In this document: positions 13,803 through 63,682 of the stretch, in pieces | Layout of the letters: every line of letters begins with the position of its first letter | Numbering within the stretch: the first letter of the stretch is position 1 | Source of the DNA: a virus | Reading direction: 5' to 3' (one strand) | DNA: 64,000 nucleotides | Virus record (IMG/VR): IMGVR_UViG_3300020477_001611 | Location: 37,155-101,154 of that record | Translations under genes and position numbers: made by a program | The notes under the pieces: generated by a model | The model's database searches: none | Told to the model about the DNA's origin: nothing | What the model saw: only the letters and a program-made list of their open reading frames with translations

Positions 13803-13810
13803 TAATTAGC
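13803..13810 (-). promoter_or_regulatory. Candidate late promoter motif GCTAATTA
   Basis: Overlaps the stop of the giant protein, about 19 nt upstream of the 13784 start. Confidence 0.35.
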
Positions 13811-38094: not shown

Positions 38095-39102
38095 TTACCT
38101 TGTTAAAAACTGCCTTTCAGATGACACCCTATTTCTCCAATAATCCAATAAATCGTTCATAGTCTCTTCAAAAGATATTTCAGGGTGCCAGCCAGTATGA
38201 GAAGTAAATTTAGTAGTGTCAGGAACTTGCAAATCGGCATCTACAGGCCTTAGTCTTTCTTTATCAACTTCCACCATGATGTTTTTACTTGTTGATTTAG
38301 ATATTAAATATTTCAACATTTCCCCTATGGTACATGAAAAAGTGCCCCCTATGTTATAATATTCTCCAGAAACAGGATTTTTGGTGACAAGCAAATAATA
38401 AGCCCTCACGGCATCTCTCACATCTGTCCAAGTCCTTAAAGAATCCAAATTCCCAACCTTTACAACCGGCGGAATAAGACCGAGTTCTATCATTGCAATC
38501 TGCTTTGCAAAGGTCGATTCGGCAAAAACATCGCCGCGGCGAGGGCCCGTATGTGTAAACATCCTTGTTGTCATGATTTTCATGTTATATGCTTCTGCAT
38601 AATATCTTCCAATTAGGTCAGTTCCAATTTTAGATATTGCATACGGTGAAGCTGGATGGAAATTTTCTTCCTCAGTGATTGGCGTTCTGTCGGCAGGAAC
38701 TCTGCCATACACCTCCGAAGAGGCACAAACGTGTATGTGGGGATCAAAATTACCCTTTCTCAAAGCTTCTAACAGCTTTGCAGTCCCAATAATATTTGTA
38801 TTGAGTGTATCAAGCGGAGCATTAAAGCTGGTTTTGGGGTAGCTCTGTGCTGCTAGGTGAAAAACATAATCCGGCCTTGATTCTGCAGACGCGTCCATTA
38901 AAGAGGGTAAATCATTTAAATCGCCGTATAAAAGAAACACCCTATTTTTATTATTAATCCTGTTTGACAAATGCTCAATGTTTTCCAGATTGTCATTCCA
39001 GCGTAAAAAACCATATATCTGCCAATCAGTATTTTCTAAAAGAAAATCCGCCAAATGTGATCCGACCATACCGGTTATGCCGGTTATTAGACACCTAGTC
39101 AT
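38095..39102 (-). CDS. GDP-sugar 4,6-dehydratase/reductase (Gmd/Rmd-like)
   Basis: GITGMVG, HLAAQSY, ASSEVYG, SPYAISK, GNLDSLR. Start moved to MTRCL (39102). Confidence 0.85.
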   Translation of the reverse strand: MTRCLITGITGMVGSHLADFLLENTDWQIYGFLRWNDNLENIEHLSNRINNKNRVFLLYGDLNDLPSLMDASAESRPDYVFHLAAQSYPKTSFNAPLDTLNTNIIGTAKLLEALRKGNFDPHIHVCASSEVYGRVPADRTPITEEENFHPASPYAISKIGTDLIGRYYAEAYNMKIMTTRMFTHTGPRRGDVFAESTFAKQIAMIELGLIPPVVKVGNLDSLRTWTDVRDAVRAYYLLVTKNPVSGEYYNIGGTFSCTIGEMLKYLISKSTSKNIMVEVDKERLRPVDADLQVPDTTKFTSHTGWHPEISFEETMNDLLDYWRNRVSSERQFLTR

Positions 39103-40084
39103 TGAAGTAATTGTTCCTTGTCTTGTAAAGATCTCTGTTTTCCGCAAACCAATCGACTGTTTCTTTAAGTCCCTCGTACAAAGATGTCTTGTTTTTAATC
39201 CCATGGGATTCTGCTCTAGAAGTATCCATGATCCTCTTCGCGTCACCCTTTGGTTTGCTTGTATCCCAAACAATGTCAACATTTTTATCGTAAATGTCTC
39301 TAATGGTTTCTGCCAATTCTTTAATGGTGATTCCTGTGCCCGATCCTAAGTTAACCGGCTCTGTGACACCGTTTTCTACTAATTTAATCATTGCTGCTGC
39401 GCAGTCGTCGGCATAAATGAAATCTCTAATGGGGGCCCCATCCCCCCAGCAGACTAACGGTGATTCTCCAGAAGCTATTCGATTAATTAAAGATGGAATC
39501 ACCATAGCATTATTTGGATCAAAATTGTCCCATTTTCCATATACGTTAGCGGGGCGCGCAATTGAAATATTATTCTTTCCATTTTGTACCGCGTAGGCGC
39601 CCGCTTGAAGTTCCCCGATCCTCTTAGACCAGCCGGGATATTTGTCGTTCTCTGAAGGGAACGTTTTCCAAACATCGTCCTCCTTAAAAACTGGGGCTGG
39701 ATGGTACACTCCAACAGAACTAGTGTACAAGTACCACTCAACCCCCTCTCTCATAGCCGCTTCCATCATATTCGTATTAAACATCAACATTGGTACCATA
39801 AATTTTGCTGGCTTTTCGCGTGACATTTTTGGGGAACCCTTAATGCCAATTAAATTAAATACATATTCTTGGCCCTCAACAGCCTTAAGGCAATTTTCAA
39901 ATGAGGTCAAATCTAGCTTTTTAAAATTAACACCTGTGGGCAGTCCCGCAGGATCGTCCAAGGAAACAACAGTCACTCTACAGCCTTTTTCGACGAGCCT
40001 ATCTACCAAGTAACGGCCGATCATGCCGGTTCCGCCAGTAACTAAAACTTTTTTATTTACTAAGTTATTTTTAAAAATAGACAC
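39095..40084 (-). CDS. Fcl/GME-like extended SDR lacking the canonical catalytic Tyr
   Basis: TGGTGMIG, RPANVYG, WGDG..IRDF; active-site segment YPGWSK. Probable GTG start at 40084. Confidence 0.8.
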   Translation of the reverse strand: MSIFKNNLVNKKVLVTGGTGMIGRYLVDRLVEKGCRVTVVSLDDPAGLPTGVNFKKLDLTSFENCLKAVEGQEYVFNLIGIKGSPKMSREKPAKFMVPMLMFNTNMMEAAMREGVEWYLYTSSVGVYHPAPVFKEDDVWKTFPSENDKYPGWSKRIGELQAGAYAVQNGKNNISIARPANVYGKWDNFDPNNAMVIPSLINRIASGESPLVCWGDGAPIRDFIYADDCAAAMIKLVENGVTEPVNLGSGTGITIKELAETIRDIYDKNVDIVWDTSKPKGDAKRIMDTSRAESHGIKNKTSLYEGLKETVDWFAENRDLYKTRNNYFND

Positions 40085-40853
40085 TCTCGCCCCCATCTGC
40101 CGCAATTGATGCCCCGCTTATCAAACTAGCTTTGTCCGAACATAGAAAAACAACCAAGTTGGCAACCTCTTCGGGAGTGCCCATACTGCCTCGCGGGAAG
40201 TTGGACCTAATAAATTCTTCAAAACCTTGTGGGTCCTTCTCCCTCATTGTCTCCCAGCCCGTATTTGGAATCCAAATACCCCCGGGCGCGACAGAATTAA
40301 ATGTAATGTTTGCCGATGCATATGCTGGATTTCTTGATAAATTTTTCATTAATGTTGTTTGCGCTGATTTTGCCACATTAAACCATGGTCGGCCGCCGGC
40401 CTGTTTTCCATAAATTGATGTAATTGCAATAACGCGCCCCCACTTTTTTTCAATCATGTGCGGTAAAAACATTCTACTATATTTCATTGCAGAAGTTAAA
40501 TTTTTATCATAAACTTCTTGCCAAACCAGATCGGTGGTCTCTAGAAGGTCTGGGGATCCCCATCGGCCGCCGCCGCCGACGTTATTTACGACAATATCAA
40601 CTCCACCCCATTTTTCTTTTATAGCAGATTCGACTTTGAAGAAGGATTCATTATCCAGTACATCTGCCACAATACAAATACTTTCTATATCATATTCAGA
40701 TAAGAAATCTTTTGCCTCTTTAACCCTTTCTGGTGTGCGGCTAAATACGGCGATGTCAACTCCCTCCTTGGCCAGTTCAATAGCGATGGCCTTTCCTATA
40801 CCATGTGTTCCGCCACTAACAAGAGCCCTCTTTCCCCTTAAATCTAAATTCAT
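40071..40853 (-). CDS. Classical SDR oxidoreductase (FabG-like) with Tyr->Phe
   Basis: GGTHGIG, VNNVG, NSVAPG; FNVAK in place of YxxxK. Confidence 0.85.
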   Translation of the reverse strand: MNLDLRGKRALVSGGTHGIGKAIAIELAKEGVDIAVFSRTPERVKEAKDFLSEYDIESICIVADVLDNESFFKVESAIKEKWGGVDIVVNNVGGGGRWGSPDLLETTDLVWQEVYDKNLTSAMKYSRMFLPHMIEKKWGRVIAITSIYGKQAGGRPWFNVAKSAQTTLMKNLSRNPAYASANITFNSVAPGGIWIPNTGWETMREKDPQGFEEFIRSNFPRGSMGTPEEVANLVVFLCSDKASLISGASIAADGGESVYF

Positions 40854-41776
40854 TTTTGCTCCAAAAAATTTGTTATCTTGTTCACAACGCTAGCCTCATC
40901 TAATGAATATTTTTTATGAAGTTTTTGGCGAGTGCCATAATAAAAACAATGCTGATCTCTCACGGCTATTGGTAGAAATTTTTTATGCAAATGATGCTTA
41001 GCCAGCAAAAATCCAATCTTCTCGCCCACACCGCCCGAGTATGTATTTTCTTCTAGCGTGATAATGTTCTCGGCATTTTGTAATAATTTAAGTATTTTAT
41101 TTTCGTTCAAAGGTTTAAGTCTATAAATATCAATAACAGAAACCCCCTCAAGCCGATTTGCCGCCCCAACTGCAACATGGGTCATGTAGCCTGTAGATAA
41201 AATCAAGGTATTCTGTGGCGGGCCTTTAAGCAAGTGAGCGCCCTCTTGAACATTAAAATCGTGATTATAAATTCTATTACACACGCCCTTTTCTATTCTA
41301 AAATATTTTGGACCGTGGGTGTAATAAGCCATCTCTGCCAAGCTTCTTGAGTTTACTTCATCTGTAACGTTAAAAACTTGTAACCCGGGGAGGGTCATCA
41401 TCGCCTGAGCGTCCTGCATCCCTTGATGTGTTGGGCCATCCGTACTATATGTAAAGCCGGCGCCGACGCCAATTAAATTGACGTGAGAGTTCATTGCGCA
41501 CAAATCTATATTAACTTGCTCTAAACTCCTCATTGATATAAAGTTATTGATACTATAAACATAAACAACTTTTCCTGTTGCTGCCAACCCTGCGGCAAAA
41601 CTAATCATATTTTGTTCAGCTATGCCAACATTCAGATACTGTGAAGGGAAATCTTTTTCTATTCTTGATAACCCAAAAGCTCCATGATCTGCTGTCAATA
41701 TAATCGCTTCTTTATGTTCACTAATGATTTTATAAACGCCATCAAAAAAAGCGTCTCTCATGTCCACAATACTCAT
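40850..41776 (-). CDS. Transketolase-like C-terminal (beta) subunit
   Basis: NVGIAEQNM...AAGLA, DGPTHQ, ITLEE. Confidence 0.88.
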   Translation of the reverse strand: MSIVDMRDAFFDGVYKIISEHKEAIILTADHGAFGLSRIEKDFPSQYLNVGIAEQNMISFAAGLAATGKVVYVYSINNFISMRSLEQVNIDLCAMNSHVNLIGVGAGFTYSTDGPTHQGMQDAQAMMTLPGLQVFNVTDEVNSRSLAEMAYYTHGPKYFRIEKGVCNRIYNHDFNVQEGAHLLKGPPQNTLILSTGYMTHVAVGAANRLEGVSVIDIYRLKPLNENKILKLLQNAENIITLEENTYSGGVGEKIGFLLAKHHLHKKFLPIAVRDQHCFYYGTRQKLHKKYSLDEASVVNKITNFLEQK

Positions 41777-42597
41777 TGTGTGCCCCTGCTGATTTCTTCT
41801 TTACAGAGATGATATGTGTCTTTATCAATGCCGCCGTGATGCCACTTATGATTATTCTCCATAAAAGAAACGCCTTTTCCCTTGGTCGTATTTGCTATAA
41901 TTACTGTTGGCTTATCGCCCCCTATAGCAGAAAAAACCTCAAAAAGTTTTTTATGATCGTGGCCGTCAACTTCAACAACGTTCCACCCAAAGGCCCTCCA
42001 TTTGTCACCAAAAGGATTTAATCTATTTATTTTTTCAGTTTGCCCGTGAATACACAGCCCATTTCTGTCCACAATAGCAATAAGATTATTAAGCGATAGG
42101 TGGGCAGAAAGTTGTGCCGCTTCCCAGATCGTCCCTTCGCAACACTCCCCATCGCCCAATACAACATACGTCTTACAGTTTTTATTGTCAAGCTTTGCTG
42201 AATATGCCATACCAGAGGCTACTCCCAAGCCATGACCCAAAGAGCCGGTGTCAAATTCAATTCCCGGGATATTATGATCCGGATGTTCTCCCAGCAACCC
42301 TTCATTATTCATCGACATAAGATCTTTTTCTGTAATTAATCCAAGCTCTTGTAATATCACATATTGCGCGATGGCGGCGTGACCCTTGCTTAATAAAAAT
42401 CGATTTCTATCTTGACTTAAATAATTTTTCTTGTTCAATCCGAGGAATCCACCATAATATAATACAGTTAGAATATCTACACACGAGTATGCTCCACCAA
42501 TATGGCCCTTCCCCGCGTTATAGATTGTTTTTAAAATTTTAAGTCTGAATTTTGTACTTAAACTTCTTAACTGCTTTACCAAAGCCTCTTTTTGCAT
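41773..42597 (-). CDS. Transketolase-like N-terminal (alpha) subunit
   Basis: GHIGG, LSKGHA, TGSLGHGL, ThDP motif GDGE..EG..WEA...DRN. Confidence 0.9.
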   Translation of the reverse strand: MQKEALVKQLRSLSTKFRLKILKTIYNAGKGHIGGAYSCVDILTVLYYGGFLGLNKKNYLSQDRNRFLLSKGHAAIAQYVILQELGLITEKDLMSMNNEGLLGEHPDHNIPGIEFDTGSLGHGLGVASGMAYSAKLDNKNCKTYVVLGDGECCEGTIWEAAQLSAHLSLNNLIAIVDRNGLCIHGQTEKINRLNPFGDKWRAFGWNVVEVDGHDHKKLFEVFSAIGGDKPTVIIANTTKGKGVSFMENNHKWHHGGIDKDTYHLCKEEISRGTQ

Positions 42598-42603
42598 CGT
42601 GCC

Positions 42604-43161
42604 TCACATCTTGGTGCATATCATTTTTGTGTTTATTCTAGACTTCATAATGTCCTTCATCAACTCTGGACATTCATATTTCTTTAATTGCTCGACCTCA
42701 AAGCCTCTCTTCATCATATATTTTTCTATATCCACATGATAATATTTTGAAGAAAAATTATTATTAAAAAGTATTTTACCACCCTTGACAACGTTATTTA
42801 TAGCCCATTCTAAACACTGAAGGCGCAACTCGGGATGTGTTGCGGCTGCAGCAACATCGATCTCACAAAAAGCTAAATCAATTTTTTTATTTAAATTATT
42901 ACAATCAACTATTTGTATATTTGGATGTCCAAGAGGATTAAGCCAATCATACCCTATCACGCGCTCCGGCCCATATATGGAACAAAGATTTTCGATGGCC
43001 AAGCCCAAACCACAACCGACCTGCACAATGTAGCCGTTGGGCGGTATATTTAATCTTGGCAGCACATATTTTGAAACTAAAAAAGAACAATATTCATACC
43101 CATAGTGCGTCCACTTAAGAGAAGAAAAAGATTCGTCCATTTTTTCTTTTTCTGTCATCAT
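42604..43161 (-). CDS. Class I SAM-dependent methyltransferase-like protein
   Basis: IVQVGCGLG, VIGYD, GGKILF. Start moved to 43161 (ATGA overlap, SD AGGAG). Confidence 0.6.
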   Translation of the reverse strand: MMTEKEKMDESFSSLKWTHYGYEYCSFLVSKYVLPRLNIPPNGYIVQVGCGLGLAIENLCSIYGPERVIGYDWLNPLGHPNIQIVDCNNLNKKIDLAFCEIDVAAAATHPELRLQCLEWAINNVVKGGKILFNNNFSSKYYHVDIEKYMMKRGFEVEQLKKYECPELMKDIMKSRINTKMICTKM

Positions 43162-43835
43162 ATGATAAACTCCTTTTCCTCTAAAAGGTGTAAAGAGTCT
43201 GGTGTTGTTATTCCCGTAACTTGTAATGTCCACTTGTCCGCAATGCCTGCGTTGCAAGATAAATGATACATACCATAAGGCCATGTGTAAGTATCGCCTC
43301 TTTTCCAATTTGTTACAACATTATTGCCGATTTGTACCATGTGGCCCCAATGCCAATCTTCTAAAAACATCAAATATCTTCTCACGGTGGTAAGGTCGGA
43401 GATGTTTTGGGAGTCTCTAATCATCTTATATGTATCAAAATGCCATGGCACAACATTTCCGGGGCGCTGTCTTATCATTGCCAATGAGCAATTTGATAGT
43501 CCAGAAATTTCTGCGATGCGATGACAAAATTCAGGGAATTTGTGATCATTGGTGCTGGTGATTTGGAATCTACGTGTATTATGCTCAGTATATCCAGCGG
43601 CCACATAAAGCTCTTTGCCCCAACTCAAATTAAACTCATCTAATGGTTTATCATAATCTTCTGGGTATATATCCACGGCATGGCCTTCCTCAACTTGTTC
43701 AGTCGCTACTTTAAAATTATCAAAATCGCCCACAAATCTACCCACATATTGACCATCTTGTGATTCAATTTGTGGATCATAGTGCCAATCCTGAAGGGAT
43801 TTTTTATATTCTAGCTGACTGTCAAATTTAAACAT
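43158..43835 (-). CDS. 2OG-Fe(II)/DSBH oxygenase-like protein
   Basis: PGNVVPWHFD (HxD), distal H in YHLSCNAG, terminal TLQVTG strand. Confidence 0.6.
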   Translation of the reverse strand: MFKFDSQLEYKKSLQDWHYDPQIESQDGQYVGRFVGDFDNFKVATEQVEEGHAVDIYPEDYDKPLDEFNLSWGKELYVAAGYTEHNTRRFQITSTNDHKFPEFCHRIAEISGLSNCSLAMIRQRPGNVVPWHFDTYKMIRDSQNISDLTTVRRYLMFLEDWHWGHMVQIGNNVVTNWKRGDTYTWPYGMYHLSCNAGIADKWTLQVTGITTPDSLHLLEEKEFII

Positions 43836-43837
43836 TC

Positions 43838-44776
43838 TTAAATTCCTTTATACCTTTCTTCTAGGGGTGTCCCGTTTGAAACCAAGGGCATATCCCCCAA
43901 AAGACCAGAAATTGTGACCCTTCTCCAATCTGTCCCCCTTTGAAAATCCTTAAATCTTTCATCATCTTTTGCCGCCAAACCAAAAGAAATGCAATTTGTG
44001 GGAATCAAATTGGACTCGTCACACACCATAATTTGTTTTTCCCTATATTTATCTTGAATATAATCAGGCGAAAAATGATTACATATGGCATCTCCGACAA
44101 TGCACCCCATTGTAGATACTTGGCCCAAACTGTTAAAAACATCCACCGGATCATCGTTAAATTCTCTTTTACACCTCATACCAATTCTTATTTTTTCAGT
44201 GCCATAAAACCCCTTACTCATACTAAAAGCGACACCCTTGATGCACTCTCTTTCTAAACTAAAATTTATATTTCTAGCCATAACATAATACGCACAATCA
44301 ATAAATACTGGTACTCCCAATAAGTCACACTTGTCTAAAACAGACTCTAGTTTCGGGTGAATTGAGCCATAATCACTAAACGGGACTGATACTATAAAAG
44401 CATCCCCCTCTCGGATCTCGTCATCCTCAACATAGGCCCAGCCATGATAGTTGTTTCTCCAAGAAAGCCAATGATAAGCAAATTCACCTTTAAAGCATCT
44501 CATTCTCCTATCCTTATATTCAGAATAGAAAAAATCAAAGGCCTGTGTTGAACCATGCACATAGCTTAATTTGTTAAATTCTCTTATTCCTTTCAGATTA
44601 TTATGTTTGCTTTCTTGAACCCATTCGTGAAATCTACATAAAAAATCACTTTGGATACCCCTGTCAAATAACTTAGAGGGATCATGAGCCTTTTTTATAA
44701 ATTCAAATGCCACAGAGTCTGGGACTGGGCGGGAGCCCTTTTGCAGTCCGGGCGGGCATAGCCGATTTTGTTGCAT
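43838..44776 (-). CDS. Fold-type I PLP-dependent enzyme
   Basis: GSTQAF, FIDCAY (PLP Asp), FSMSKGF...RIG (Schiff-base Lys). Confidence 0.65.
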   Translation of the reverse strand: MQQNRLCPPGLQKGSRPVPDSVAFEFIKKAHDPSKLFDRGIQSDFLCRFHEWVQESKHNNLKGIREFNKLSYVHGSTQAFDFFYSEYKDRRMRCFKGEFAYHWLSWRNNYHGWAYVEDDEIREGDAFIVSVPFSDYGSIHPKLESVLDKCDLLGVPVFIDCAYYVMARNINFSLERECIKGVAFSMSKGFYGTEKIRIGMRCKREFNDDPVDVFNSLGQVSTMGCIVGDAICNHFSPDYIQDKYREKQIMVCDESNLIPTNCISFGLAAKDDERFKDFQRGTDWRRVTISGLLGDMPLVSNGTPLEERYKGI

Positions 44777-44786
44777 TTCTTAACTC

Positions 44787-45320
44787 CTATTGATTATAGT
44801 ATTCGCCATATTCCACCAATAACGTTGGCTTTGAATCTTTTCTTGTCAATGCTTTTTGATACGCCGGAAAAATGTCTTCCTTGTTTTCCAGCAACACTAC
44901 TTCAACATTGGTTAGTAAGTGGCGAAACGCCTCAGTATGGTCCTGCGTGTGTTGCACCCCCCCATTAAGGGGAACTTTGGCACCAATTGAAGTGCGCACT
45001 ATAACCCGTGGTTTGTAGGTCCCGCGAGTCATCTCTTCCATCTTGTCTAAATGATTAACCAATTGATTTATTGCAAGCAGTAAAAAATCAAAACGCGGAT
45101 AGCAAGTAACAGGAACATACCCCTCCATGGCCAACCCAATAGAAAGGCCCATCTGCGTTTCTTCAAACACTGGAGTTTCGATCTTTCTATCTTTATTGAT
45201 TGTTTTTAAGGTGTTATAAATTGAATTTCCGCTATAGCTGACAGACTGGCCAAGAAAAACAACTCTTGGGTCCTCTGCTAAATATTCCATCGATTTAACT
45301 AAATGATCTACATACTTCAT
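44787..45320 (-). CDS. Short 2-oxoacid dehydrogenase E1-beta-like ThDP subunit (177 aa, no C-terminal domain)
   Basis: VFLGQ, ETPVFE..QMG..IG.A, DFL..A.NQ.VN, G.QH.QD. Start moved to MKYVD (45320). Confidence 0.8.
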   Translation of the reverse strand: MKYVDHLVKSMEYLAEDPRVVFLGQSVSYSGNSIYNTLKTINKDRKIETPVFEETQMGLSIGLAMEGYVPVTCYPRFDFLLLAINQLVNHLDKMEEMTRGTYKPRVIVRTSIGAKVPLNGGVQHTQDHTEAFRHLLTNVEVVLLENKEDIFPAYQKALTRKDSKPTLLVEYGEYYNQ

Positions 45321-45330
45321 CTTTTTTTCC

Positions 45331-45972
45331 TTAAAACAAAATCCACTGGCCAGTGCCATGATGTGGGTATCCCCTCTCGTAAGAATAATAAAAAACGTCT
45401 TCAGGCGGTATTGTTTTTGTTCCATTCCACGTTTCATCTGTTGGCGTATTAGTACTCATATTGTTGTCCTCGACAACAAACTCCAATGGAAGGTTGTGTC
45501 TTCTGGAGTATTTATATACCTCATTAAAAATACCAGTTTCATAAGTCATATCACCTACGAAAGCCCACACTTTTCTATCTGTACCCTTCATTTGTTGAGC
45601 TTTGGCGGCGCCAAGTGCAATTGGAATAATTCCGCCCACAATAGAAGATGTATACAATTTTGGACTTTTACAATAAACACTCATGCTCTTTCCAGCAGTT
45701 ATTAATTCCCACAAATGTTCTTCTGAGACGCCATGTAAAAGAGCGTGATAGTGGTTTCTCCAAGACGAAAAAACCCAATCCTCTGGGTTGACATATTTAA
45801 AGACTTCAATCAACTGTTTTTCATTGCCCTTTGACATGTGAACTGGACCAGTAATTGTGCCCTTTTCATATTCCTCTTTGACGCGCAACTCAAAATTTAC
45901 TAGATCTTGAGCAGTTAATTTCACATCATTAATTTCTTTATTTTTAAATTTCTCTGGAATGTGCAAATTCAT
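45331..45972 (-). CDS. Short E1-alpha-like ThDP subunit (213 aa)
   Basis: GPVH...G.E, WRNH, SIVGG, GDM...EDNN. Start moved to 45972. Confidence 0.82.
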   Translation of the reverse strand: MNLHIPEKFKNKEINDVKLTAQDLVNFELRVKEEYEKGTITGPVHMSKGNEKQLIEVFKYVNPEDWVFSSWRNHYHALLHGVSEEHLWELITAGKSMSVYCKSPKLYTSSIVGGIIPIALGAAKAQQMKGTDRKVWAFVGDMTYETGIFNEVYKYSRRHNLPLEFVVEDNNMSTNTPTDETWNGTKTIPPEDVFYYSYERGYPHHGTGQWILF

Positions 45973-45973
45973 T

Positions 45974-46948
45974 TTATTCCTTATAACTTTTTTTATACCA
46001 TTCAATGGTTTTTTGGATTCCCTCTTCTAGTGAAGTCATAGGATGCCAACCCAACTCTTCCTTCGCCTTAGTTGAAATTAACGCGAGCTTTGTGTTAATT
46101 GAAGGTTTCGTTAAATCATGCTTTATGGTAACATTTTTATTAGAAATTTTTATTATTTTTTTCACTATCTCTTTAACAGAAAATGATTCTCCATAGCCCA
46201 CATTATAAAGTTCATATTGGCTTTTCTGACTGTTAATTGCTTTGTGTATGAAGCCTACAACATCATCCACATAAAGAAGGTCTCTTTCAGTAGAGCCATC
46301 GCCCCAAACAATAATTTCTTCTCCGTCTTTGGCGTTCAAGACCTTAGTAATAGTTGCGCCGAACATGTGAGATTTTTCTAAGTCATACTTGTCGTGAGGG
46401 CCATAAGTGTTGCTGTGGCGAATAGAAGTGTGTTTTGTTTTGCCCAATCCAGCAAAAAACTCACACATTTTTTCAACATAAACTTTTGTCCAGCCAACAC
46501 CAAAATAATTTTTGAAAATTGGCTCATCTAAATAATAGTCTTTCTCTGTTACGGGCGAGCGTGCGGGATTATACATGACTCCACAGCTTAAAAACAAAAA
46601 GTGCTCTATCGAATGGTCATAACATGCCCGCAGAATAAGAGAATTCATGACTGCATTATCTGTGACATGTAGATAGGGTCTTTCTATAATGTCCTTTGCC
46701 CCTGAAGTGGTTGCTGCTGCTTGAATAACAATATCAAACTTTTCGCTATTAAACACTGCGTCGATGCCGCCTTGTGTTGTCAAATCCTCATAAAATATCT
46801 TTTTACCGGGCCAGTCATCATACCTCCTAGTATTGGCAACGCCATATACTTGAAAGTTCTCCAAATTGGAAAAATATTCTGATATGTTCCTTCCCATGAA
46901 GCCGGTAGCGCCGCAAACTAAAATCTTTTTCACCAGCTTATCTCCCAA
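45974..46948 (-). CDS. Fcl-like extended SDR lacking the canonical catalytic Tyr
   Basis: GATGFMG, SCGVMY, VGWTK, SN.YGP.D, SHMF, WGDG...RD. Confidence 0.8.
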   Translation of the reverse strand: MGDKLVKKILVCGATGFMGRNISEYFSNLENFQVYGVANTRRYDDWPGKKIFYEDLTTQGGIDAVFNSEKFDIVIQAAATTSGAKDIIERPYLHVTDNAVMNSLILRACYDHSIEHFLFLSCGVMYNPARSPVTEKDYYLDEPIFKNYFGVGWTKVYVEKMCEFFAGLGKTKHTSIRHSNTYGPHDKYDLEKSHMFGATITKVLNAKDGEEIIVWGDGSTERDLLYVDDVVGFIHKAINSQKSQYELYNVGYGESFSVKEIVKKIIKISNKNVTIKHDLTKPSINTKLALISTKAKEELGWHPMTSLEEGIQKTIEWYKKSYKE

Positions 46949-47343
46949 TCTTTAAACTCTGCGGCCAAACAATCAATTTTATAGTCTTTTCGGCCGCCGG
47001 CATATTCCTGAATTTTATTCTTTGCTGTATTTCTAATGCCATTTAAACCATGTGTAAGCTCTAGGTTGTTTCCGTCTTTAATTCCTTTGCGGTAATTGCT
47101 TTCGTTGTGCCAAATGTGCAAATTCATCTGAGAGAGAACAACGATTGCCCTAACCGTCTCCGCATCTATATTTTCGGCCTTATTCAGTATAAGCTGAATA
47201 TCGTGACATATATCCTCTATTTCTTGCGCATACTCACTTTTATGATCTGAAATAAACACTTCCTTAAGCTGAGCGATAGAAAGTCTATCAACTAGTTCAG
47301 ATAGCGTAGGCAAGTATTTTCTTTCCGCATTATTTTCCAACAT
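46930..47343 (-). CDS. Helical protein, DUF4254/DUF6165-like
   Basis: ELVDRLSI..LK...N..IWH.E...R...N..R...K..I pattern. Confidence 0.5.
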   Translation of the reverse strand: MLENNAERKYLPTLSELVDRLSIAQLKEVFISDHKSEYAQEIEDICHDIQLILNKAENIDAETVRAIVVLSQMNLHIWHNESNYRKGIKDGNNLELTHGLNGIRNTAKNKIQEYAGGRKDYKIDCLAAEFKDWEISW

Positions 47344-47348
47344 GAACC

Positions 47349-47378
47349 ATTATACCACTTAAACGAAAACAGTTTAAG
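47349..47378 (-). promoter_or_regulatory. Extended -10 promoter with an overlapping inverted repeat
   Basis: TTAAAC-17 nt-TATAAT with TGn extension, 5 nt before the ATG at 47343; 7-bp inverted repeat CTTAAAC-N7-GTTTAAG (47358-47378). Confidence 0.6.
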
Positions 47379-47390
47379 GGGTGGACGATG

Positions 47391-48032
47391 TTATGAGGAG
47401 GCCCTCTTAAAGGCAATAAAGCCGTTTCTTTCATTGGAATAGTCTTTCAAAACATCCCATTCCTTAGATACAAGGAGGTCTTTCTTGACATCATAATTTT
47501 TTAATATGTTGGAGTCATCTAAAAGAATAATATTGGCGCGATCATTTATTTTTTTATATTCTGCATAAGAACTAAATTCGCCGCCGTCCAACAGGAGTAC
47601 ATCTATAGATGGTGGCAATTTATCAAATATATTTATACACTCCTTTTTATTATACCACTTTATGTCTCCGCTATGCCACTCCTCCCAGCCAGTATGGCGC
47701 GGTGGGCCGACCTCTGATGTTTTTATTTCTTCTAAAGTCATAATTTCTGACGGCTCAATAATTCTTCCCAAAAGGAGGTGAATTTTTTTTCGGCGATAGG
47801 CTGCTGTAATCGGCGCCCAATATGTAACAGCTTGATCGTAAAAAACAGAATGAGACTCTATACTATATAATACACTGTCGTCATCCCTCTCAAATAGCGC
47901 ATCCATAAAACATTTCGTGCTACCTTGCCCATTCCAAGTGCCTATTTCCACAAATGTTTTATTTGTTGTATCTCTTGAAAGATCATAAATTAACTCTCCG
48001 GGCCTGCTGCCTCTATTTATTTGGCCACTCAT
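47391..48032 (-). CDS. Class I SAM-dependent methyltransferase-like protein
   Basis: FVEIGTWNGQGST, YSIE, IDVLLLDGG, ILLDD. Confidence 0.7.
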   Translation of the reverse strand: MSGQINRGSRPGELIYDLSRDTTNKTFVEIGTWNGQGSTKCFMDALFERDDDSVLYSIESHSVFYDQAVTYWAPITAAYRRKKIHLLLGRIIEPSEIMTLEEIKTSEVGPPRHTGWEEWHSGDIKWYNKKECINIFDKLPPSIDVLLLDGGEFSSYAEYKKINDRANIILLDDSNILKNYDVKKDLLVSKEWDVLKDYSNERNGFIAFKRASS

Positions 48033-49549
48033 TTTCTCTCTCCCCCATAGTTTAAACTATCACAAGTCTGTTTTAAAATAAATTCTGGTATAATAATATT
48101 ACCCTGTCCCATTGAATGTTCGTATTTAACACCGGGTCGGGCAGAATAAAAAGGAATATTAAGTTTTGTTCTAACTTCCCTTTCTAGGGCTTCTCTCTCC
48201 TTTACCAAGCTCTCTGCAGAAATATGGTCTGTCCATACATATGAAATATATCCACCACTTGGATCTCCTTTATAATAATCCTGTTCTGTCAAATAGTTAA
48301 GAGGTTTTTGATAAAGTTTATCGCCTGATATATCAGACGTATACACATAGTGGTCTCCTTGCTTTACTGCCTCATCAAAATAGGGTGAGCCCGGATATGT
48401 TGTAATAATTGTGCAGTCAAACTCTTCTGGCTGTGTTTTTAATAGCCAATTTTTAGTATTTTCAATCGTTTCTGCGCTTTCGCCAGCGTGGCCTACAGAC
48501 ATAAGAGCTTTTACTTTAAGACCGTGCTTCTTTGCAATTTCAACACATCTAGTGTTGTCGTCTTTTGAGGCCCTCTTCTTAATATTTGTTAAAATTCTTT
48601 CATCACCAGATTCAAAGCCGGTCAAAATCCACCTAAAACCAGCGCGGTACATTGCCTGTGCCTGCACCTCATTAAATAACTCAGCCTTTATGAAACCTCT
48701 CAATTTAAAATCTACACCGTGCTTTTCCTGTAAATCACTAATCTGATTCATCATCGGCACCATATTTTTATTAACGTTAAGTTCGTCGTCGTAAAACATG
48801 AATGCTTTGAATCCGTACTCCAAATATAAATGTTCAATCTCTTTAATTACCGAATCGGTGCCACGCGTGCGGATTTTTCTTAGGAATGGAGAATTGCGGC
48901 CACTACAAAAAGTACAAAAAAACGGACAGCCCAATTGAGCTATTAAACTAACGGCGTCCTCGCCCTCAATCTGATATTTATATGAGCCAACATCGACCAA
49001 GTGCCTTGCTGGCATCGGGAAGTTGGTAAACTGCTTATTGCTCAAAAATAACGGTGAACGCCTATCATCAGCATCAACAACACCGCTGTCTATTTTAAGA
49101 GCCTCAAAAATTGCCAATTCGCCGTCACCGCAGACCAGCACATCATATAAACCAAGCAACTGTTCAATGTCTTTTGTCGCCCGATCACTACCCACAAAGT
49201 TCTTTTCTTTTTCTTTTTTTGATGCCGAGTGCATCAAAGAAACGTGCGGACCACCCAGCATCAACTTTCCCACTTTTCCTTTTAAAGCGTGTGCGATTTT
49301 TACAGCAAACGGCACCTGTGGTGTTGTTGCAGTCACTCCAATAACCTTCGCGCTCCCGGGCATTTTAACATAATCATTTAACACATCAACAAAATTTGAA
49401 ATACCACTCAAATCAACAAAATCAACTTTATATCCCTCCTGTTCAAGTACGGCTGCAACTTTTAAAACGCCAATATGCATAAACACCCGCTCATCCAAAA
49501 GGAACGGCGAAGGTGGAGTAACCAAACATATGTGCTTATTTACATTCAT
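48029..49549 (-). CDS. Cobalamin-binding radical SAM protein (class B methylase-like)
   Basis: N-terminal B12 domain (GGPH, GDGE), GCPFFCTFC, FYDD, GFESG, YPGS. Confidence 0.9.
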   Translation of the reverse strand: MNVNKHICLVTPPSPFLLDERVFMHIGVLKVAAVLEQEGYKVDFVDLSGISNFVDVLNDYVKMPGSAKVIGVTATTPQVPFAVKIAHALKGKVGKLMLGGPHVSLMHSASKKEKEKNFVGSDRATKDIEQLLGLYDVLVCGDGELAIFEALKIDSGVVDADDRRSPLFLSNKQFTNFPMPARHLVDVGSYKYQIEGEDAVSLIAQLGCPFFCTFCSGRNSPFLRKIRTRGTDSVIKEIEHLYLEYGFKAFMFYDDELNVNKNMVPMMNQISDLQEKHGVDFKLRGFIKAELFNEVQAQAMYRAGFRWILTGFESGDERILTNIKKRASKDDNTRCVEIAKKHGLKVKALMSVGHAGESAETIENTKNWLLKTQPEEFDCTIITTYPGSPYFDEAVKQGDHYVYTSDISGDKLYQKPLNYLTEQDYYKGDPSGGYISYVWTDHISAESLVKEREALEREVRTKLNIPFYSARPGVKYEHSMGQGNIIIPEFILKQTCDSLNYGGERK

Positions 49550-50340: not shown

Positions 50341-50697
50341 TTAATCCCCGCTGATAATCCGATAAGAATCGCTGTCAAAATGTTGAGTTGAAAATTCAAA
50401 TAACTCTGTATCATCTAAAGCCAACATTTGGTGTCTTAAGCCACGATAAACATGAAAATTATCACCCTTGCTTAAAACCACTTCTTTTGATTTTTCGATG
50501 TCATCTTGTTCTGAAAACCTTACTAGGATCTTCCCTGATTGGATGTAAAACACTTCGTCTTTAAGCTTGTGGTAATGCCAAGAGCATTTTTTTCCTTTCA
50601 CAAAATATAATAATTTTCCGCAATATTCTTCGCAGTTTACAATCCACTTTTCAAAACCCCAGCCCTTGGGGACAAACTTAATCGGCAAAGAAGTCAC
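50341..50697 (-). CDS. Cupin protein (sugar-phosphate isomerase-like)
   Basis: KGWG.E, CSWHYH...DE.F...G, distal H, EFST. Probable GTG start at 50697. Confidence 0.78.
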   Translation of the reverse strand: MTSLPIKFVPKGWGFEKWIVNCEEYCGKLLYFVKGKKCSWHYHKLKDEVFYIQSGKILVRFSEQDDIEKSKEVVLSKGDNFHVYRGLRHQMLALDDTELFEFSTQHFDSDSYRIISGD

Positions 50698-50998
50698 TAT
50701 CTCTAATCCCCTTATCATCTATATAGAAATCAGCGCTAGGCTTTCCCAAAAATAGATGATGATATTTTACCCCCCACTCTTTTAATTGGTTGGCGGTAAG
50801 CTCATAAAAATCCTGTATTGCCAACATCATGTTGTTTTTATGTCGGCCCATTCCCCGCGCAGTATAGCATATAATTGTATGCCCCTCATTATAAAGAGTG
50901 TTTATTTTTTTTATCCGCTCTTTAAAAGGCTCTGCGTTTTTATAGCGCGGCGATGCGTGGCTACAAATTGTACCATCTATATCAAATACATAAATCAC
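50678..50998 (-). CDS. Minimal HAD phosphatase (EcbF/BcbF capsule-phosphatase-like)
   Basis: FDIDGT, YTARG, GKP.AD.YIDDK. Start at GTG 50998 (or ATG 51013). Confidence 0.82.
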   Translation of the reverse strand: MIYVFDIDGTICSHASPRYKNAEPFKERIKKINTLYNEGHTIICYTARGMGRHKNNMMLAIQDFYELTANQLKEWGVKYHHLFLGKPSADFYIDDKGIRDSDFFAD

Positions 50999-51804
50999 AC
51001 GCTGCTCCTCCATTTTTCTACATCTTCCTCTCTTATAACATAAGTTCCGAAATTTTTTACCGCAATCGAAGCACAAAAATTAGCAAATTTAATTGCTTCC
51101 GGGGGGTCCTCGCCGGCCAAACAAGACGTAACAAAGGCAGCCAAAAAAGTATCGCCGGCCCCGCAAACGTTGGGGGAGAGTCCAGTGTTATCTATCTCGC
51201 TCGGATATGACTCATAAATTCTGTCTTGATATAAAGCGCCCCTCTTACCAAGGGTAATTATAAACTGACAATTAGAAGGTTCTCGCTTCATAGATTCAAA
51301 TTCATTTTCATTTATTTTCAAAAAACAATCTTTATAGCAAGAAAGATCTTTCTTTTTAGAGTCGGCAAAAACAGGGACATTAGCTTTGGCAGCCTCCTTT
51401 AAAATTATATTAATAGAAGTCTCGTCTAAAAAACCCTTATCATAATCTGAAATAACAATTGCATCATATTTTTTAAAATTAATATTTTGTTTAAGGCGTG
51501 TTGGTTTTGTTTTCTTTGTTTCGCCCGTGTCTAGCCGCATGATATGGTGATTGCTGGTGGTTACCACAAACCTCTCTTTTGTTATTTTATTATTGTGAGT
51601 AATCAAAGAAACTTTATTTCCAAGATTAATTAAATTCAGGCAGACATTTCCTGCCATACCTTGGCTTTCTTGTGTGTTTACCAATTTGAATATAGGAACT
51701 GGAGCTTCCGGGCTTAGGCGAATGCACTCCCCAAAGTGATACCTATCGATGCACGAATCACCTATCACTAATATCTTTGATGATTTTGGTTGTGGAATAT
51801 CCAT
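50995..51804 (-). CDS. rfaE1: Heptose-7-phosphate kinase-like PfkB protein (HldE kinase domain)
   Basis: IGD..ID.Y..G...RLSPEAPVP, G.AGNV..N, ISDYDKG, CGAGDTF. Confidence 0.85.
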   Translation of the reverse strand: MDIPQPKSSKILVIGDSCIDRYHFGECIRLSPEAPVPIFKLVNTQESQGMAGNVCLNLINLGNKVSLITHNNKITKERFVVTTSNHHIMRLDTGETKKTKPTRLKQNINFKKYDAIVISDYDKGFLDETSINIILKEAAKANVPVFADSKKKDLSCYKDCFLKINENEFESMKREPSNCQFIITLGKRGALYQDRIYESYPSEIDNTGLSPNVCGAGDTFLAAFVTSCLAGEDPPEAIKFANFCASIAVKNFGTYVIREEDVEKWRSSV

Positions 51805-52147
51805 CTATGAACTCAAATATATGAACTGTTGCCAGATCAGACCCTACAACATCTGCCGCCTTATAGTCGCCGCCCTTTACAATTATATCAGGCTTTATTC
51901 CCTTTATTAAGTTGTATGGAGTGTCTTCTTCAAAAATTTTTACTTCATCAACATATTTTAAGCTCTCTAATAAATATTTTCTGTCCTGTTCTGAATTAAT
52001 GGGGCGATCGGGACCTTTTAGGCGTGCTACGCTAGCATTGCTGTTTAGACCCACAGTGACATGCCCCAAAGACTTACAATATTTTAACAATTCTAAATGA
52101 CCTCGATGAAAAATATCGAAGCACCCATTAGTAAAAACCTTAATCAT
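51758..52147 (-). CDS. rfaE2: Heptose-1-phosphate nucleotidyltransferase (HldE C-terminal domain)
   Basis: VFTNGCFDIFHRGH, GLNS..SV.RLKG.DRP, KGGDY, GYSTT. Confidence 0.9.
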   Translation of the reverse strand: MIKVFTNGCFDIFHRGHLELLKYCKSLGHVTVGLNSNASVARLKGPDRPINSEQDRKYLLESLKYVDEVKIFEEDTPYNLIKGIKPDIIVKGGDYKAADVVGSDLATVHIFEFIDGYSTTKIIKDISDR

Positions 52148-62055: not shown

Positions 62056-62064
62056 TGCTTTCCA

Positions 62065-62072
62065 TAATTAGT
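62065..62072 (-). promoter_or_regulatory. Candidate late promoter motif ACTAATTA
   Basis: In the 58-nt gap, about 10 nt upstream of the clpP start. Confidence 0.4.
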
Positions 62073-62113
62073 TAGTAGGTTGATTATGACTTAAATTGTT
62101 ATGCTCAATAAGT

Positions 62114-63353: not shown

Positions 63354-63361
63354 AGTTCCTC

Positions 63362-63676: not shown

Positions 63677-63682
63677 AACAAA

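What the first reader, a model, noticed from the sequence alone, without database searches (positions are those of the whole stretch)
38095..47378. Sub-operon with two different ThDP enzymes: putative branched or chain-extended sugar pathway
Seen: behind its own promoter, the order is DUF4254-like, SDR, E1-alpha, E1-beta, [3 genes], transketolase-N, transketolase-C, SDR, SDR, Gmd-like. No E2/E3 subunits are in the window. Established: ThDP enzymes add C2 units to NDP-keto-sugars (YerE for yersiniose; E1 alpha/beta-like pairs AviB1/B2 for eurekanate and AlmDI/DII for aldgarose). Inference: the Gmd-like enzyme supplies a GDP-4-keto-6-deoxy sugar, and the two ThDP enzymes add an acetyl unit (from pyruvate) and a glycolyl unit (from a ketose). 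The product would be a doubly extended or branched sugar of unknown structure.
Basis: partly seen in the sequence, partly recalled or inferred. Interest (0 to 1): 0.78.

Follow-up and report, generated by a model that had tools for sequence, protein, structure and literature searches.

The report
Phage branched-heptose pathway, two ThDP enzymes
A marine phage carries a sugar-tailoring gene set, shared with SAR11 and other ocean bacteria, that pairs a heptose 4,6-dehydratase with a miniaturised E1-like enzyme and an altered split transketolase; it most likely builds an unknown carbon-branched 6-deoxy-heptose.

Summary
On the minus strand, 47343 to 38095, the gene order is as described, and no E2, lipoyl or E3 gene occurs in the 101-kb virus record.

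Four corrections:
- The "Gmd-like" gene is a close homologue of the C. jejuni GDP-D-glycero-D-manno-heptose 4,6-dehydratase (7US5, E 1e-108), so the likely substrate is a heptose nucleotide, not GDP-mannose.
- The E1 pair is a distinct miniature family (213 + 177 aa, PP and Pyr domains only). It is widespread in marine viruses, SAR11, SAR202, Nitrospira and Burkholderiales, and is almost always next to sugar-nucleotide genes.
- The split transketolase belongs to a cluster-linked clade separate from housekeeping TKs. It keeps the catalytic residues but changes three substrate-site residues (S385 to hydrophobic, H461G, R520K).
- The three neighbouring SDRs all lack the canonical catalytic Tyr, and this is conserved in homologues. 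The "DUF4254" label is unsupported.

Both ThDP enzymes track the dehydratase across dozens of independent loci, together or singly. Published precedents exist for E1-like (acetyl) and split-TK (hydroxyacetyl) branching of keto-sugars in actinomycete antibiotics.

Best reading: C-branching of an NDP-6-deoxy-4-keto-heptose. The product and the TK's exact role are inferred, not shown. I class it as a new variant of a known kind.

The parts
46930..47343 (-). 137-aa protein of unknown function (u137), first gene of the sub-operon. Predicted four-helix bundle.
   Evidence: No Pfam hit above threshold. AlphaFold model pLDDT 84 with four helices. No informative PDB neighbour. 12 of 20 distinct homologues lie less than 300 nt from a Tyr-less Fcl-like/SDR324-type SDR.
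45974..46948 (-). Extended SDR (Fcl/epimerase-like, 324 aa) with VGWTK in place of YxxxK.
   Evidence: Epimerase 1.7e-39. Motif alignment. Homologues in most E1a loci.
45331..45972 (-). Miniature E1alpha-like ThDP subunit (213 aa, PP domain only; GDM...EDNN Mg/ThDP motif).
   Evidence: E1_dh 1.1e-16, covering profile positions 6-176 of 300. More than 4000 homologues, the top 120 being 202-224 aa. The best 150 clusters at 50% identity are about 200 aa, with some fused, fragmentary or insert-bearing forms, and none is a full-length E1alpha. Best PDB hit is human PDH E1alpha at only 3e-9.
44787..45320 (-). Miniature E1beta-like subunit (177 aa, Pyr domain only; no C-terminal E2-docking domain).
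   Evidence: Transket_pyr 6.8e-14 only. 89 distinct homologues, mostly 170-190 aa, with the catalytic Glu (E53) and the QH motif conserved in at least 95%. Fused to E1a in cyanophage S-SM2 gene SSM2_198 and in P0131.
43838..44776 (-). 312-aa protein with a class I/II aminotransferase (PLP) fold and an SMSK lysine motif.
   Evidence: Atlas: feature score 0.99 and TM 0.86-0.90 to viral 'aminotransferase class I/II' clusters. Weak Aminotran_1_2 hit, E 0.12. Found only in the window and L003/L113.
43158..43835 (-). 225-aa protein, function unknown (HxD...H pattern read from the sequence only).
   Evidence: No Pfam, PHROG or NCBIfam hit. Structure prediction failed, pLDDT 30.
42604..43161 (-). 185-aa protein, possibly a class I SAM methyltransferase (weak).
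   Evidence: Methyltransf_23/25 at E 0.23, not significant. Gly-rich VQVGCGLG motif read from the sequence.
41773..42597 (-). Split transketolase, N-terminal (PP) subunit.
   Evidence: Transketolase_N 1e-36. Best PDB hit 6YAK split TK, 3e-62. H26, H66, H100, D155, N185 and H261 equivalents are kept.
40850..41776 (-). Split transketolase, C-terminal (Pyr + TKC) subunit with an altered substrate site.
   Evidence: Pfam and 6YAJ at 1e-35. R358, E411, D469 and H473 are kept; S385 becomes F, H461 becomes G and R520 becomes K, in all 20 cluster-linked homologues aligned.
40071..40853 (-). FabG-like classical SDR travelling with the split TK; catalytic Tyr replaced by Phe (WFNVAK).
   Evidence: adh_short_C2 4.5e-45. 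The Y-to-F change is seen in the HMMER alignment to FabG 2P68. The WF(N/T)xxK motif is kept in all 10 cluster-linked homologues, while three unrelated SDRs in the same loci have Y.
39095..40105 (-). GDP-fucose-synthase-like extended SDR (FclL) with PGW(A/S)K in place of YxxxK.
   Evidence: Epimerase 9.4e-44. Best PDB hit is GDP-L-fucose synthase at 9e-36. The Tyr position is not conserved in about 45 homologues. Present in 17 of 18 viral E1a loci.
38095..39102 (-). NDP-heptose 4,6-dehydratase homologue (GmdL) with a canonical YAISK and SSE.
   Evidence: 7US5 GDP-D-glycero-D-manno-heptose 4,6-dehydratase, E 1.4e-108, 366 bits, aligned end to end. GDP-mannose dehydratases score about 1e-40. TIGR gmd 181 bits, below the 415 cut-off.
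50341..52156 (-). Associated NDP-heptose-type activation module outside the finding's coordinates: cupin, HAD phosphatase, pfkB kinase, RfaE-domain-II-like nucleotidyltransferase.
   Evidence: rfaE_dom_I 2e-46. rfaE_dom_II 9e-45 and EcbF/BcbF phosphatase 7e-13. Cupin. Sits directly downstream of GmdL in L110, L112 and L114.
48029..49549 (-). B12-binding radical SAM enzyme just upstream; frequent companion of both ThDP enzymes.
   Evidence: Radical_SAM + B12-binding. 90% identical in L003. Co-occurs in 41 of 110 E1a loci and 17 of 58 TK loci, loci not deduplicated.

Best explanation
The sub-operon is a tailoring module for a carbon-branched 6-deoxy-heptose nucleotide. It sits inside a 24-kb glycan island of an uncultured marine T4-like myovirus.

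Proposed steps:
1. The phage's kinase / phosphatase / nucleotidyltransferase set makes an NDP-heptose.
2. GmdL converts it to an NDP-6-deoxy-4-keto-heptose.
3. The miniature E1alpha/beta-like enzyme has only the ThDP-binding PP and Pyr domains, so it cannot dock on an E2. It acts as a stand-alone carboligase: it decarboxylates a 2-keto acid (most simply pyruvate) and adds the acyl anion to the sugar's keto carbon, giving a tertiary alcohol with an acetyl branch. This is what the E1-like 'alphaKADH2' enzymes do in antibiotic sugar pathways.
4. The split transketolase, whose sugar-phosphate pocket is remodelled, handles a second C2 (hydroxyacetyl) unit on the same or a sister keto-sugar.
5. The atypical SDRs, the PLP-fold enzyme, the putative methyltransferase and the B12-radical-SAM enzyme tailor the product.
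6. Glycosyltransferases in the island then use it.

Shown: gene content, domain truncation, residue changes, conserved synteny, separation from housekeeping enzymes.
Inferred: substrates, the order of steps, the product, and what the phage uses the sugar for.
For: Dehydratase identity: GmdL matches 7US5 at 1e-108.

Synteny:
- E1a + E1b + FclL + GmdL occur together in 16 of 18 viral loci; the two exceptions are truncated.
- The same module is found in SAR11, SAR202 and gammaproteobacterial genomes.
- TK-N/TK-C with the FabG-like SDR joins the module in 8 of 18 viral and 11 of 80 cellular loci.
- TK found on its own search is accompanied by GmdL in 17 of 41 loci and by E1a in 12.
- In three relatives GmdL is followed directly by the heptose activation genes.

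Not housekeeping:
- The short E1a scores 245-294 bits in 18 of 201 Pelagibacteraceae genomes, while their full-length E1alpha scores 77-110 bits.
- Pelagibacter HIMB1412 has a separate 659-aa TK.
- In the tree, housekeeping TKs are separated from cluster-linked TKs with 92/97 support.
- No E2, lipoyl or E3 gene is present.

Catalytic competence:
- E1a has GDM...EDNN, and E1b has the conserved Glu and QH.
- The TK catalytic His, Glu and Asp residues are kept.
- The TK substrate site is changed at S385, H461 and R520. These residues are listed as substrate-binding in PMC4601599.

Precedents:
- E1-like pairs add pyruvate-derived C2 branches to NDP-keto-sugars: Plm8/9, AviB1/B2, and KbDH tested in vitro (PMC4802897; PMC12247030).
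Against: - No biochemical data exist for any member of either clade.
- The known branching E1-like enzymes are described as similar to full-length E1 subunits; these are truncated, and I could not compare sequences directly.
- The split-TK precedent is itself unproven.
- All three neighbouring SDRs lack the canonical Tyr, so the expected reduction steps have no obvious catalyst.
- The activation genes look like the ADP-heptose (RfaE) type, whereas 7US5 uses GDP-heptose. The nucleotide is therefore uncertain.
- TK and E1 also occur separately, so a single doubly modified product is not required.
- Some 'cellular' MAG contigs could be mis-binned viral DNA. Against that, the Pelagibacter HIMB1412 locus lies on a 1.3-Mb contig and the Herbaspirillum and Massilia genomes carry no MAG label.
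Confidence: 0.55

Rival explanations
1. Donor-builder model. Only one ThDP enzyme touches the sugar nucleotide. The other, with its SDR, makes a functionalised donor (a hydroxylated 2-keto acid or ketose) that is then attached as a longer branch, as proposed for erwiniose, caryophyllose and gastriose.
For: PMC9306805 shows that the ThDP enzymes ErwE and MygE take C4-C8 hydroxy-keto acids made by neighbouring enzymes. TK and the FabG-like SDR form a tight conserved sub-module. The TK has lost sugar-phosphate contacts, which fits a non-phosphorylated small substrate.
Against: E1-only and TK-only clusters both exist with GmdL. According to PMC12247030, alphaKADH2-type enzymes appear restricted to C2 donors. 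No aldolase was detected in the module.
Confidence: 0.2
2. The split transketolase is an auxiliary pentose-phosphate gene that raises sedoheptulose-7-phosphate supply for the phage's heptose pathway and does not touch the nucleotide sugar.
For: Heptose synthesis starts from S7P (PMC10680097). The island carries heptose activation genes. In L125 and L127, TK sits with GmdL and the heptose genes but without E1a/b.
Against: Three substrate-binding residues, S385, H461 and R520, are replaced in every cluster-linked TK. The clade is separate from housekeeping TKs. SAR11 carriers already have a normal TK. The TK directly follows E1b in several loci and travels with a Tyr-less SDR. SAR11 loci with TK show no phage-type heptose module within 10 kb.
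Confidence: 0.1
3. The mini-E1 is a plain decarboxylase or acyloin-cleaving enzyme that provides a small acyl or aldehyde unit for a non-carbon-linked decoration (O- or N-acyl), or decarboxylates a keto-acid sugar. It does not form a C-C branch.
For: E1-family enzymes naturally decarboxylate 2-keto acids or cleave acetoin. In Nitrospira and Burkholderiales the pair sits with different partners (Fcl-like, epimerase, B12-rSAM) and without GmdL.
Against: No acyl carrier, CoA-transferase or E2-like acceptor is present. The linkage to a 4-keto-sugar-forming dehydratase is strict in the marine set. The truncation removes the part of E1alpha/beta used for lipoyl-E2 transfer.
Confidence: 0.1
4. The genes are degenerate remnants of host PDH and TK genes with no function.
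For: Both are shorter or altered relative to canonical enzymes.
Against: Frames are intact. Identity across distant viral and cellular homologues is 60-90%, with cofactor and catalytic residues conserved in at least 90-95% of them. The family spans more than 100 clusters at 50% identity.
Confidence: 0.01

Closest known systems
alphaKADH2-type (E1alpha/beta-like) keto-sugar branching enzymes: AviB1/B2 (eurekanate), AlmDI/DII (aldgarose), Plm8/Plm9 (paulomycose), KbDH-alpha/beta (kibdelomycin)
   Same: A two-subunit E1-type ThDP enzyme without E2/E3, encoded next to an NDP-sugar 4,6-dehydratase and tailoring enzymes. The branch ketone can later be reduced, methylated or transaminated, which matches the SDR, methyltransferase-like and PLP-fold neighbours here.
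   Different: Here each subunit is cut down to a single domain (213 + 177 aa). The context is a surface-glycan island of phages and marine bacteria, not an actinomycete antibiotic cluster. The scaffold is probably a heptose. Sequence kinship with the characterised enzymes was not tested.
Split-gene transketolases proposed for hydroxyacetyl transfer in miharamycin and amipurimycin biosynthesis
   Same: A split TK-N/TK-C pair inside a sugar-tailoring cluster, next to an enzyme that creates a keto-sugar.
   Different: The 13 known candidates are all from Streptomycetes and none is characterised. The clade here is marine viral, SAR11 and SAR202, has an S385F/H461G/R520K site, and is paired with a Tyr-less FabG-like SDR.
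YerE / ErwE-type (decarboxylase-superfamily) branching enzymes of LPS sugars (yersiniose, erwiniose)
   Same: ThDP-dependent C-branching of a 4-keto-deoxy sugar nucleotide for a cell-surface glycan, followed by side-chain processing.
   Different: A different ThDP superfamily (ALS-like, single chain). The window has none, but the related Pelagibacter HIMB1412 cluster has one between E1b and TK-N.
Campylobacter jejuni GDP-heptose modification pathway (4,6-dehydratase 7US5, PLP C3-dehydratase, epimerases, C4-reductases)
   Same: GmdL matches the heptose 4,6-dehydratase end to end. The cluster also has Fcl-like SDRs and a PLP-fold enzyme, and cellular relatives have RmlC-like epimerases.
   Different: No ThDP step is known in C. 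jejuni. The Fcl-like proteins here lack the catalytic Tyr. The activation genes are RfaE-like rather than HddA/HddC-like.
LPS/heptose gene cluster of cyanomyoviruses S-SM2 and P-TIM68
   Same: Cultured T4-like cyanophages carry the mini-E1, as a fused 402-aa 'transketolase central region-containing protein', among heptose kinase, adenylyltransferase, epimerase and glycosyltransferase genes.
   Different: 37-39% identity; fused rather than split; no split TK within 12 kb.

Membership tests
alphaKADH2 keto-sugar branching enzymes (E1alpha/beta-like) | E1alpha-type PP domain with the ThDP/Mg2+ motif | tested here: met
   E1_dh 1.1e-16. The G-D of GDM and the first Asn of EDNN are invariant across 24 diverse homologues; the Glu is nearly invariant.
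alphaKADH2 keto-sugar branching enzymes (E1alpha/beta-like) | E1beta-type Pyr domain with the cofactor-activating Glu | tested here: met
   Transket_pyr 6.8e-14. E53 and QH123-124 are at least 95% conserved in 89 homologues.
alphaKADH2 keto-sugar branching enzymes (E1alpha/beta-like) | Full-length E1 subunit architecture (alpha over 300 aa; beta with a C-terminal domain) | tested here: not met
   213 aa covering profile positions 6-176 of 300, and 177 aa with no Transketolase_C. The short length is the family norm.
alphaKADH2 keto-sugar branching enzymes (E1alpha/beta-like) | Encoded with an NDP-sugar 4,6-dehydratase and sugar-tailoring genes, without E2/E3 | tested here: met
alphaKADH2 keto-sugar branching enzymes (E1alpha/beta-like) | Carboligation of pyruvate-derived acetyl to a keto-sugar | not testable with these tools
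   Needs an enzyme assay.
Keto-sugar-branching split-gene transketolases (miharamycin/amipurimycin type) | Separate TK-N and TK-C genes with intact ThDP and catalytic residues | tested here: met
Keto-sugar-branching split-gene transketolases (miharamycin/amipurimycin type) | Location in a sugar-tailoring cluster beside a keto-sugar-forming enzyme | tested here: met
   GmdL lies within 10 kb in 17 of 41 viral TK loci and in the SAR11/SAR202 loci.
Keto-sugar-branching split-gene transketolases (miharamycin/amipurimycin type) | Sequence relationship to the Streptomyces enzymes | not tested
   No tool gave me those sequences.
Canonical transketolase (EC 2.2.1.1) | Substrate (sugar-phosphate) binding residues R358, S385, H461, R520, D469 | tested here: not met
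   R358 and D469 are kept. S385 becomes F/Y/L/M, H461 becomes G and R520 becomes K in all 20 cluster-linked sequences. The four full-length 650-704-aa TKs keep H461 and R520, and three of them also keep R358 and S385. Residue roles are from PMC4601599.
Canonical transketolase (EC 2.2.1.1) | Groups with housekeeping TKs in a tree | tested here: not met
   Full-length TKs plus the Herbaspirillum split TKs are separated from the cluster-linked clade (92/97). The window groups with other viral sequences and a SAR202 sequence. The taxon sample is small.
Pyruvate dehydrogenase E1 (complex-forming) | Beta-subunit C-terminal domain for E2 docking, and E2/E3 partners | tested here: not met
   No Transketolase_C in E1b. 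No PF00198, PF00364 or PF07992 in the record. NCBIfam PDH scores are far below the cut-offs.
GDP-D-glycero-D-manno-heptose 4,6-dehydratase | Full-length close similarity to the characterised enzyme, with the SDR catalytic Tyr-Lys and Ser/Glu | tested here: met
   7US5, 366 bits, residues 4-330 aligned. YAISK and SSE are present.
GDP-D-glycero-D-manno-heptose 4,6-dehydratase | Activity on GDP-heptose | not testable with these tools
   The nucleotide is uncertain because the activation genes are RfaE-like.
DUF4254 | Pfam match of the 137-aa protein | tested here: not met
   No DUF4254 hit at E <= 0.01; only DUF7164 (21.6 bits) and DUF7783, both below the cut-off. The Atlas gives 'hypothetical protein'.

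The most novel reading that the evidence does not exclude
Marine phages and abundant ocean bacteria (SAR11, SAR202) share an undescribed route to a highly tailored, possibly doubly C-branched (acetyl plus hydroxyacetyl) 6-deoxy-heptose. The route would use three new enzyme solutions: a two-domain 'minimal' E1-type carboligase; a transketolase clade that has given up sugar-phosphate recognition to act on a nucleotide keto-sugar; and Tyr-less SDRs that may work with a small four-helix partner (u137).
Probability: 0.2. Interest if true: 0.8.

Novelty: new variant of a known kind. Interest (0 to 1): 0.64.

Why it matters
- A 2025 review (PMC12247030) places E1-like branching enzymes in secondary metabolites. 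It says the candidate branching TKs are all from Streptomycetes and none is characterised. This module would move both chemistries into the cell-surface glycans of some of the ocean's most abundant bacteria and their viruses.
- It would supply small, possibly robust carboligases (about 390 aa for the two subunits together) for making tertiary alcohols.
- For phage biology, it points to a phage-encoded unusual sugar that could alter the host surface or decorate the virion.
- Cultured systems exist in which to test it: cyanophage S-SM2 with Synechococcus WH8017, and Pelagibacter HIMB1412.

Tried and rejected
- Megablast of the 9.3-kb region against phage records found no match.
- PHROGs gave nothing for the unknown genes.
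- The 24-sequence E1a alignment was too diverse for the pattern scan. A narrower alignment worked.
- The single-protein TK-C scan found only 2 loci. The alignment scan found 41.
- The 225-aa protein folded at pLDDT 30, so nothing can be said about a cupin or 2OG fold.
- The u137 model gave no Foldseek hit at E < 1 and only generic helical matches with VIA (best Z 8.4, below the level meaningful for helical bundles).
- Test of whether long E1a forms are Rosetta-stone fusions with u137: the P0132 N-terminus shows no similarity to u137. The 550-aa forms are intein/LAGLIDADG insertions or a kinase fusion.
- PurZ reading of the PurA-like gene: 132 bits against a cut-off of 300, not supported.
- Cluster names: all ten looked-up clusters are unnamed metagenomic proteins.
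- A housekeeping origin for both enzymes was rejected.
- I could not obtain sequences of AviB, AlmD, Plm8/9, KbDH or the miharamycin TKs, so direct kinship is untested.

Full report
**Setting.** The window is bases 37155-101154 of a 101-kb IMG/VR virus record that CheckV rates about 41% complete.
- All genes lie on the minus strand.
- A T4-type baseplate wedge gene is nearest to those of Flavobacterium phage immuto and Microcystis phage Mel-JY01, at about 32% identity.
- No psbA is present in the record. The host is unknown.
- The finding sits inside a glycan island of about 24 kb (34481-58090). The island holds GT4 and GT2 glycosyltransferases, two bona fide GDP-mannose dehydratases, a GDP-fucose synthase, a four-gene heptose-type activation set and a B12-radical-SAM enzyme.

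**Observation.**
- No E2 (PF00198), lipoyl (PF00364) or E3 (PF07992) match exists in the record.
- The 'DUF4254-like' label is not supported.
- The 'own promoter' is a 47-bp spacer with a TGgTATAAT box and a small hairpin. It is shared only with the closest relative, L003.

**The dehydratase.** The 335-aa product of 38095-39102 aligns end to end with the C. jejuni GDP-D-glycero-D-manno-heptose 4,6-dehydratase (7US5, E 1.4e-108, 366 bits). GDP-mannose dehydratases score near 1e-40.
- It keeps the normal YxxxK and SSE.
- In three related viral contigs it is followed directly by the kinase, nucleotidyltransferase, HAD and cupin genes.
- The likely keto-sugar is therefore an NDP-6-deoxy-4-keto-heptose, as in the Campylobacter pathway (PMC10440746, PMC10680097).
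- The nucleotide is uncertain, because the activation genes are RfaE-like.

**The E1-like pair.** E1a (213 aa) covers only positions 6-176 of the 300-position E1_dh profile. E1b (177 aa) is a bare pyrimidine-binding domain.
- The short form is a family trait, not a truncation:
  - The word-index search gave more than 4000 homologues, and the top 120 are 202-224 aa.
  - In the exhaustive search, the best 150 clusters at 50% identity are about 200 aa, with some fused, fragmentary or insert-bearing forms. None is a full-length E1alpha.
  - 89 distinct E1b homologues are mostly 170-190 aa.
- The ThDP/Mg motif (GDM...EDNN), the activating Glu and the QH motif are conserved.
- The best solved relative is human PDH E1alpha, at only 3e-9.
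- Cultured cyanomyoviruses S-SM2 and P-TIM68 carry a fused version inside their heptose/LPS cluster.
- In the species-representative genome collection, 216 stretches encode a relative. They include a Pelagibacter HIMB1412 genome with a 1.3-Mb contig, Herbaspirillum and Massilia genomes that carry no MAG label, and Nitrospira, SAR202 and Patescibacteria genomes.
- Among 201 Pelagibacteraceae genomes, 18 have the short form (245-294 bits), while their ordinary E1alpha scores 77-110 bits. The gene is distinct and patchily distributed.

**The split transketolase.** TK-N and TK-C are most similar to the Carboxydothermus split TK (6YAK/6YAJ).
- They keep the equivalents of H26, H66, H100, D155, N185, H261, E411, D469 and H473.
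- All 20 cluster-linked sequences aligned (viral, SAR11, SAR202, gammaproteobacterial, Omnitrophota) carry S385 to F/Y/L/M, H461 to G and R520 to K.
- The four full-length 650-704-aa TKs in the alignment keep H461 and R520, and three of them also keep R358 and S385. The C. hydrogenoformans enzyme keeps the equivalents of all four in its printed alignment.
- These positions are substrate-binding residues (PMC4601599). That they bind the substrate's phosphate is from my own knowledge of the yeast and E. coli enzymes.
- A maximum-likelihood tree separates housekeeping TKs from the cluster-linked clade with 92/97 support.
- HIMB1412 has an ordinary 659-aa TK elsewhere in its genome.

**Synteny.**

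| Set of loci | Result |
|---|---|
| 18 viral loci found through E1a | 16 hold E1a, E1b, FclL and GmdL together; the two exceptions are truncated. 8 also hold the TK. |
| 80 cellular loci | The marine set repeats GmdL-E1a-E1b-FclL. TK-N is in 11, TK-C in 10 and the FabG-like SDR in 11 loci, usually adjacent to one another. |
| 80 cellular loci | A second set (Nitrospira, Burkholderiales) pairs the mini-E1 with an Fcl-like gene, an epimerase and a B12-rSAM, with no TK. |
| 41 viral loci found through TK-C | 17 have GmdL and 12 have E1a; a few have TK, GmdL and rSAM without E1. |

- Both ThDP enzymes therefore follow the dehydratase, together or singly.
- In Pelagibacter HIMB1412, a YerE/ALS-type ThDP enzyme sits between E1b and TK-N, so three ThDP classes lie in a row.

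**Atypical partners.** An earlier first-reader note said the three SDRs lack the YxxxK Tyr. I tested this.
- The FabG-like SDR reads WFNVAK. HMMER aligns the F to FabG's catalytic Tyr. The WF(N/T)xxK motif is kept in all 10 cluster-linked homologues, while three unrelated SDRs in the same loci have Y.
- FclL reads PGW(A/S)K, and no Tyr is conserved there across about 45 homologues. SDR324 reads VGWTK.
- GmdL, Fcl and Gmd1 are normal.
- The 137-aa protein is a confident four-helix bundle with no informative structural neighbour. 12 of 20 distinct copies abut one of the Tyr-less extended SDRs. I record this as a lead only.
- The 312-aa protein has a class I/II aminotransferase fold.
- The 185-aa 'methyltransferase' is only weakly indicated.
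- The 225-aa protein remains unknown.
- These three genes occur only in the window and its closest relative, L003, where they sit after the TK rather than before it.

**Interpretation.**
- E1alpha/beta-like pairs attach pyruvate-derived C2 branches to NDP-keto-sugars: Plm8/9 and AviB1/B2, with KbDH tested in vitro.
- Split-gene TKs are proposed, but not proven, to transfer hydroxyacetyl to a keto-sugar.
- The truncated E1 cannot dock on an E2, and no E2 is present, which fits a stand-alone carboligase.
- The remodelled TK pocket argues against ordinary pentose-phosphate work.
- I therefore favour C-branching of a 6-deoxy-4-keto-heptose nucleotide (confidence 0.55).

The rivals are:

| Rival | Basis | Confidence |
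|---|---|---|
| Donor-builder scheme | Modelled on erwiniose | 0.2 |
| TK as a supplier of sedoheptulose-7-phosphate | Heptose synthesis starts from S7P | 0.1 |
| Non-branching decarboxylase role for the mini-E1 | Natural E1-family chemistry | 0.1 |

None of the chemistry is shown. The Tyr-less SDRs are an unexplained feature that any model must absorb.

**Novelty.** Each enzyme type has a known counterpart. The new elements are:
- the miniature E1 architecture;
- the TK substrate-site signature;
- the atypical SDRs;
- the heptose scaffold;
- the setting in phage, SAR11 and SAR202 surface-glycan islands.

I class it as a new variant of a known kind. Earlier notes of this scan had already flagged the mini-E1, the SDR motifs, the three-gene insert and the heptose module on this same DNA. 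I tested them here.

Noticed in passing
L037:9017-15412 (Pelagibacter sp. HIMB1412, 1.3-Mb contig): One contiguous plus-strand run: heptose-dehydratase-like gene, mini-E1a, mini-E1b, a 292-aa unknown, a 559-aa YerE/ALS-type ThDP enzyme, TK-N, TK-C. All three ThDP classes known to branch keto-sugars sit side by side in a SAR11 genome.
   Followed up: partly
window 46930-47343 and homologues (e.g. L110:11912-12313, L117:13767-14482): The 137-aa four-helix protein is often duplicated. In 12 of 20 distinct copies it lies within 300 nt of an Fcl-like SDR that lacks the catalytic Tyr. It may be a partner subunit.
   Followed up: partly
P0146, P0159, P0247 (metagenomic homologues of the gene at window 45331-45972): Some mini-E1a genes carry an intein/Hint (P0146) or LAGLIDADG-containing (P0159) insertion. 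One (P0247) is fused to an APH-type kinase domain.
   Followed up: no
window 62114-63112: Short (332 aa) adenylosuccinate-synthetase-like gene. It scores below the curated cut-offs for both PurA (287 against 402 bits) and PurZ (132 against 300 bits), so it cannot be called PurA or PurZ from this evidence.
   Followed up: partly
window 48029-49549: The B12-binding radical SAM gene is the most conserved gene of the island (90% identity to L003). rSAM genes recur next to both ThDP enzymes in viral and cellular loci.
   Followed up: partly
window 50341-52156: The heptose-type activation set (cupin, EcbF-like HAD, pfkB kinase, RfaE-II-like transferase) has no SIS-fold isomerase anywhere in the record. 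In relatives it directly follows the heptose dehydratase.
   Followed up: partly
window 61414-64000: ARAGORN reported no tRNA or tmRNA anywhere in the window. An earlier first-reader note proposed a tmRNA in this stretch.
   Followed up: no
window 13806-23228: A single 3140-aa ORF downstream of the baseplate genes; not examined.
   Followed up: no
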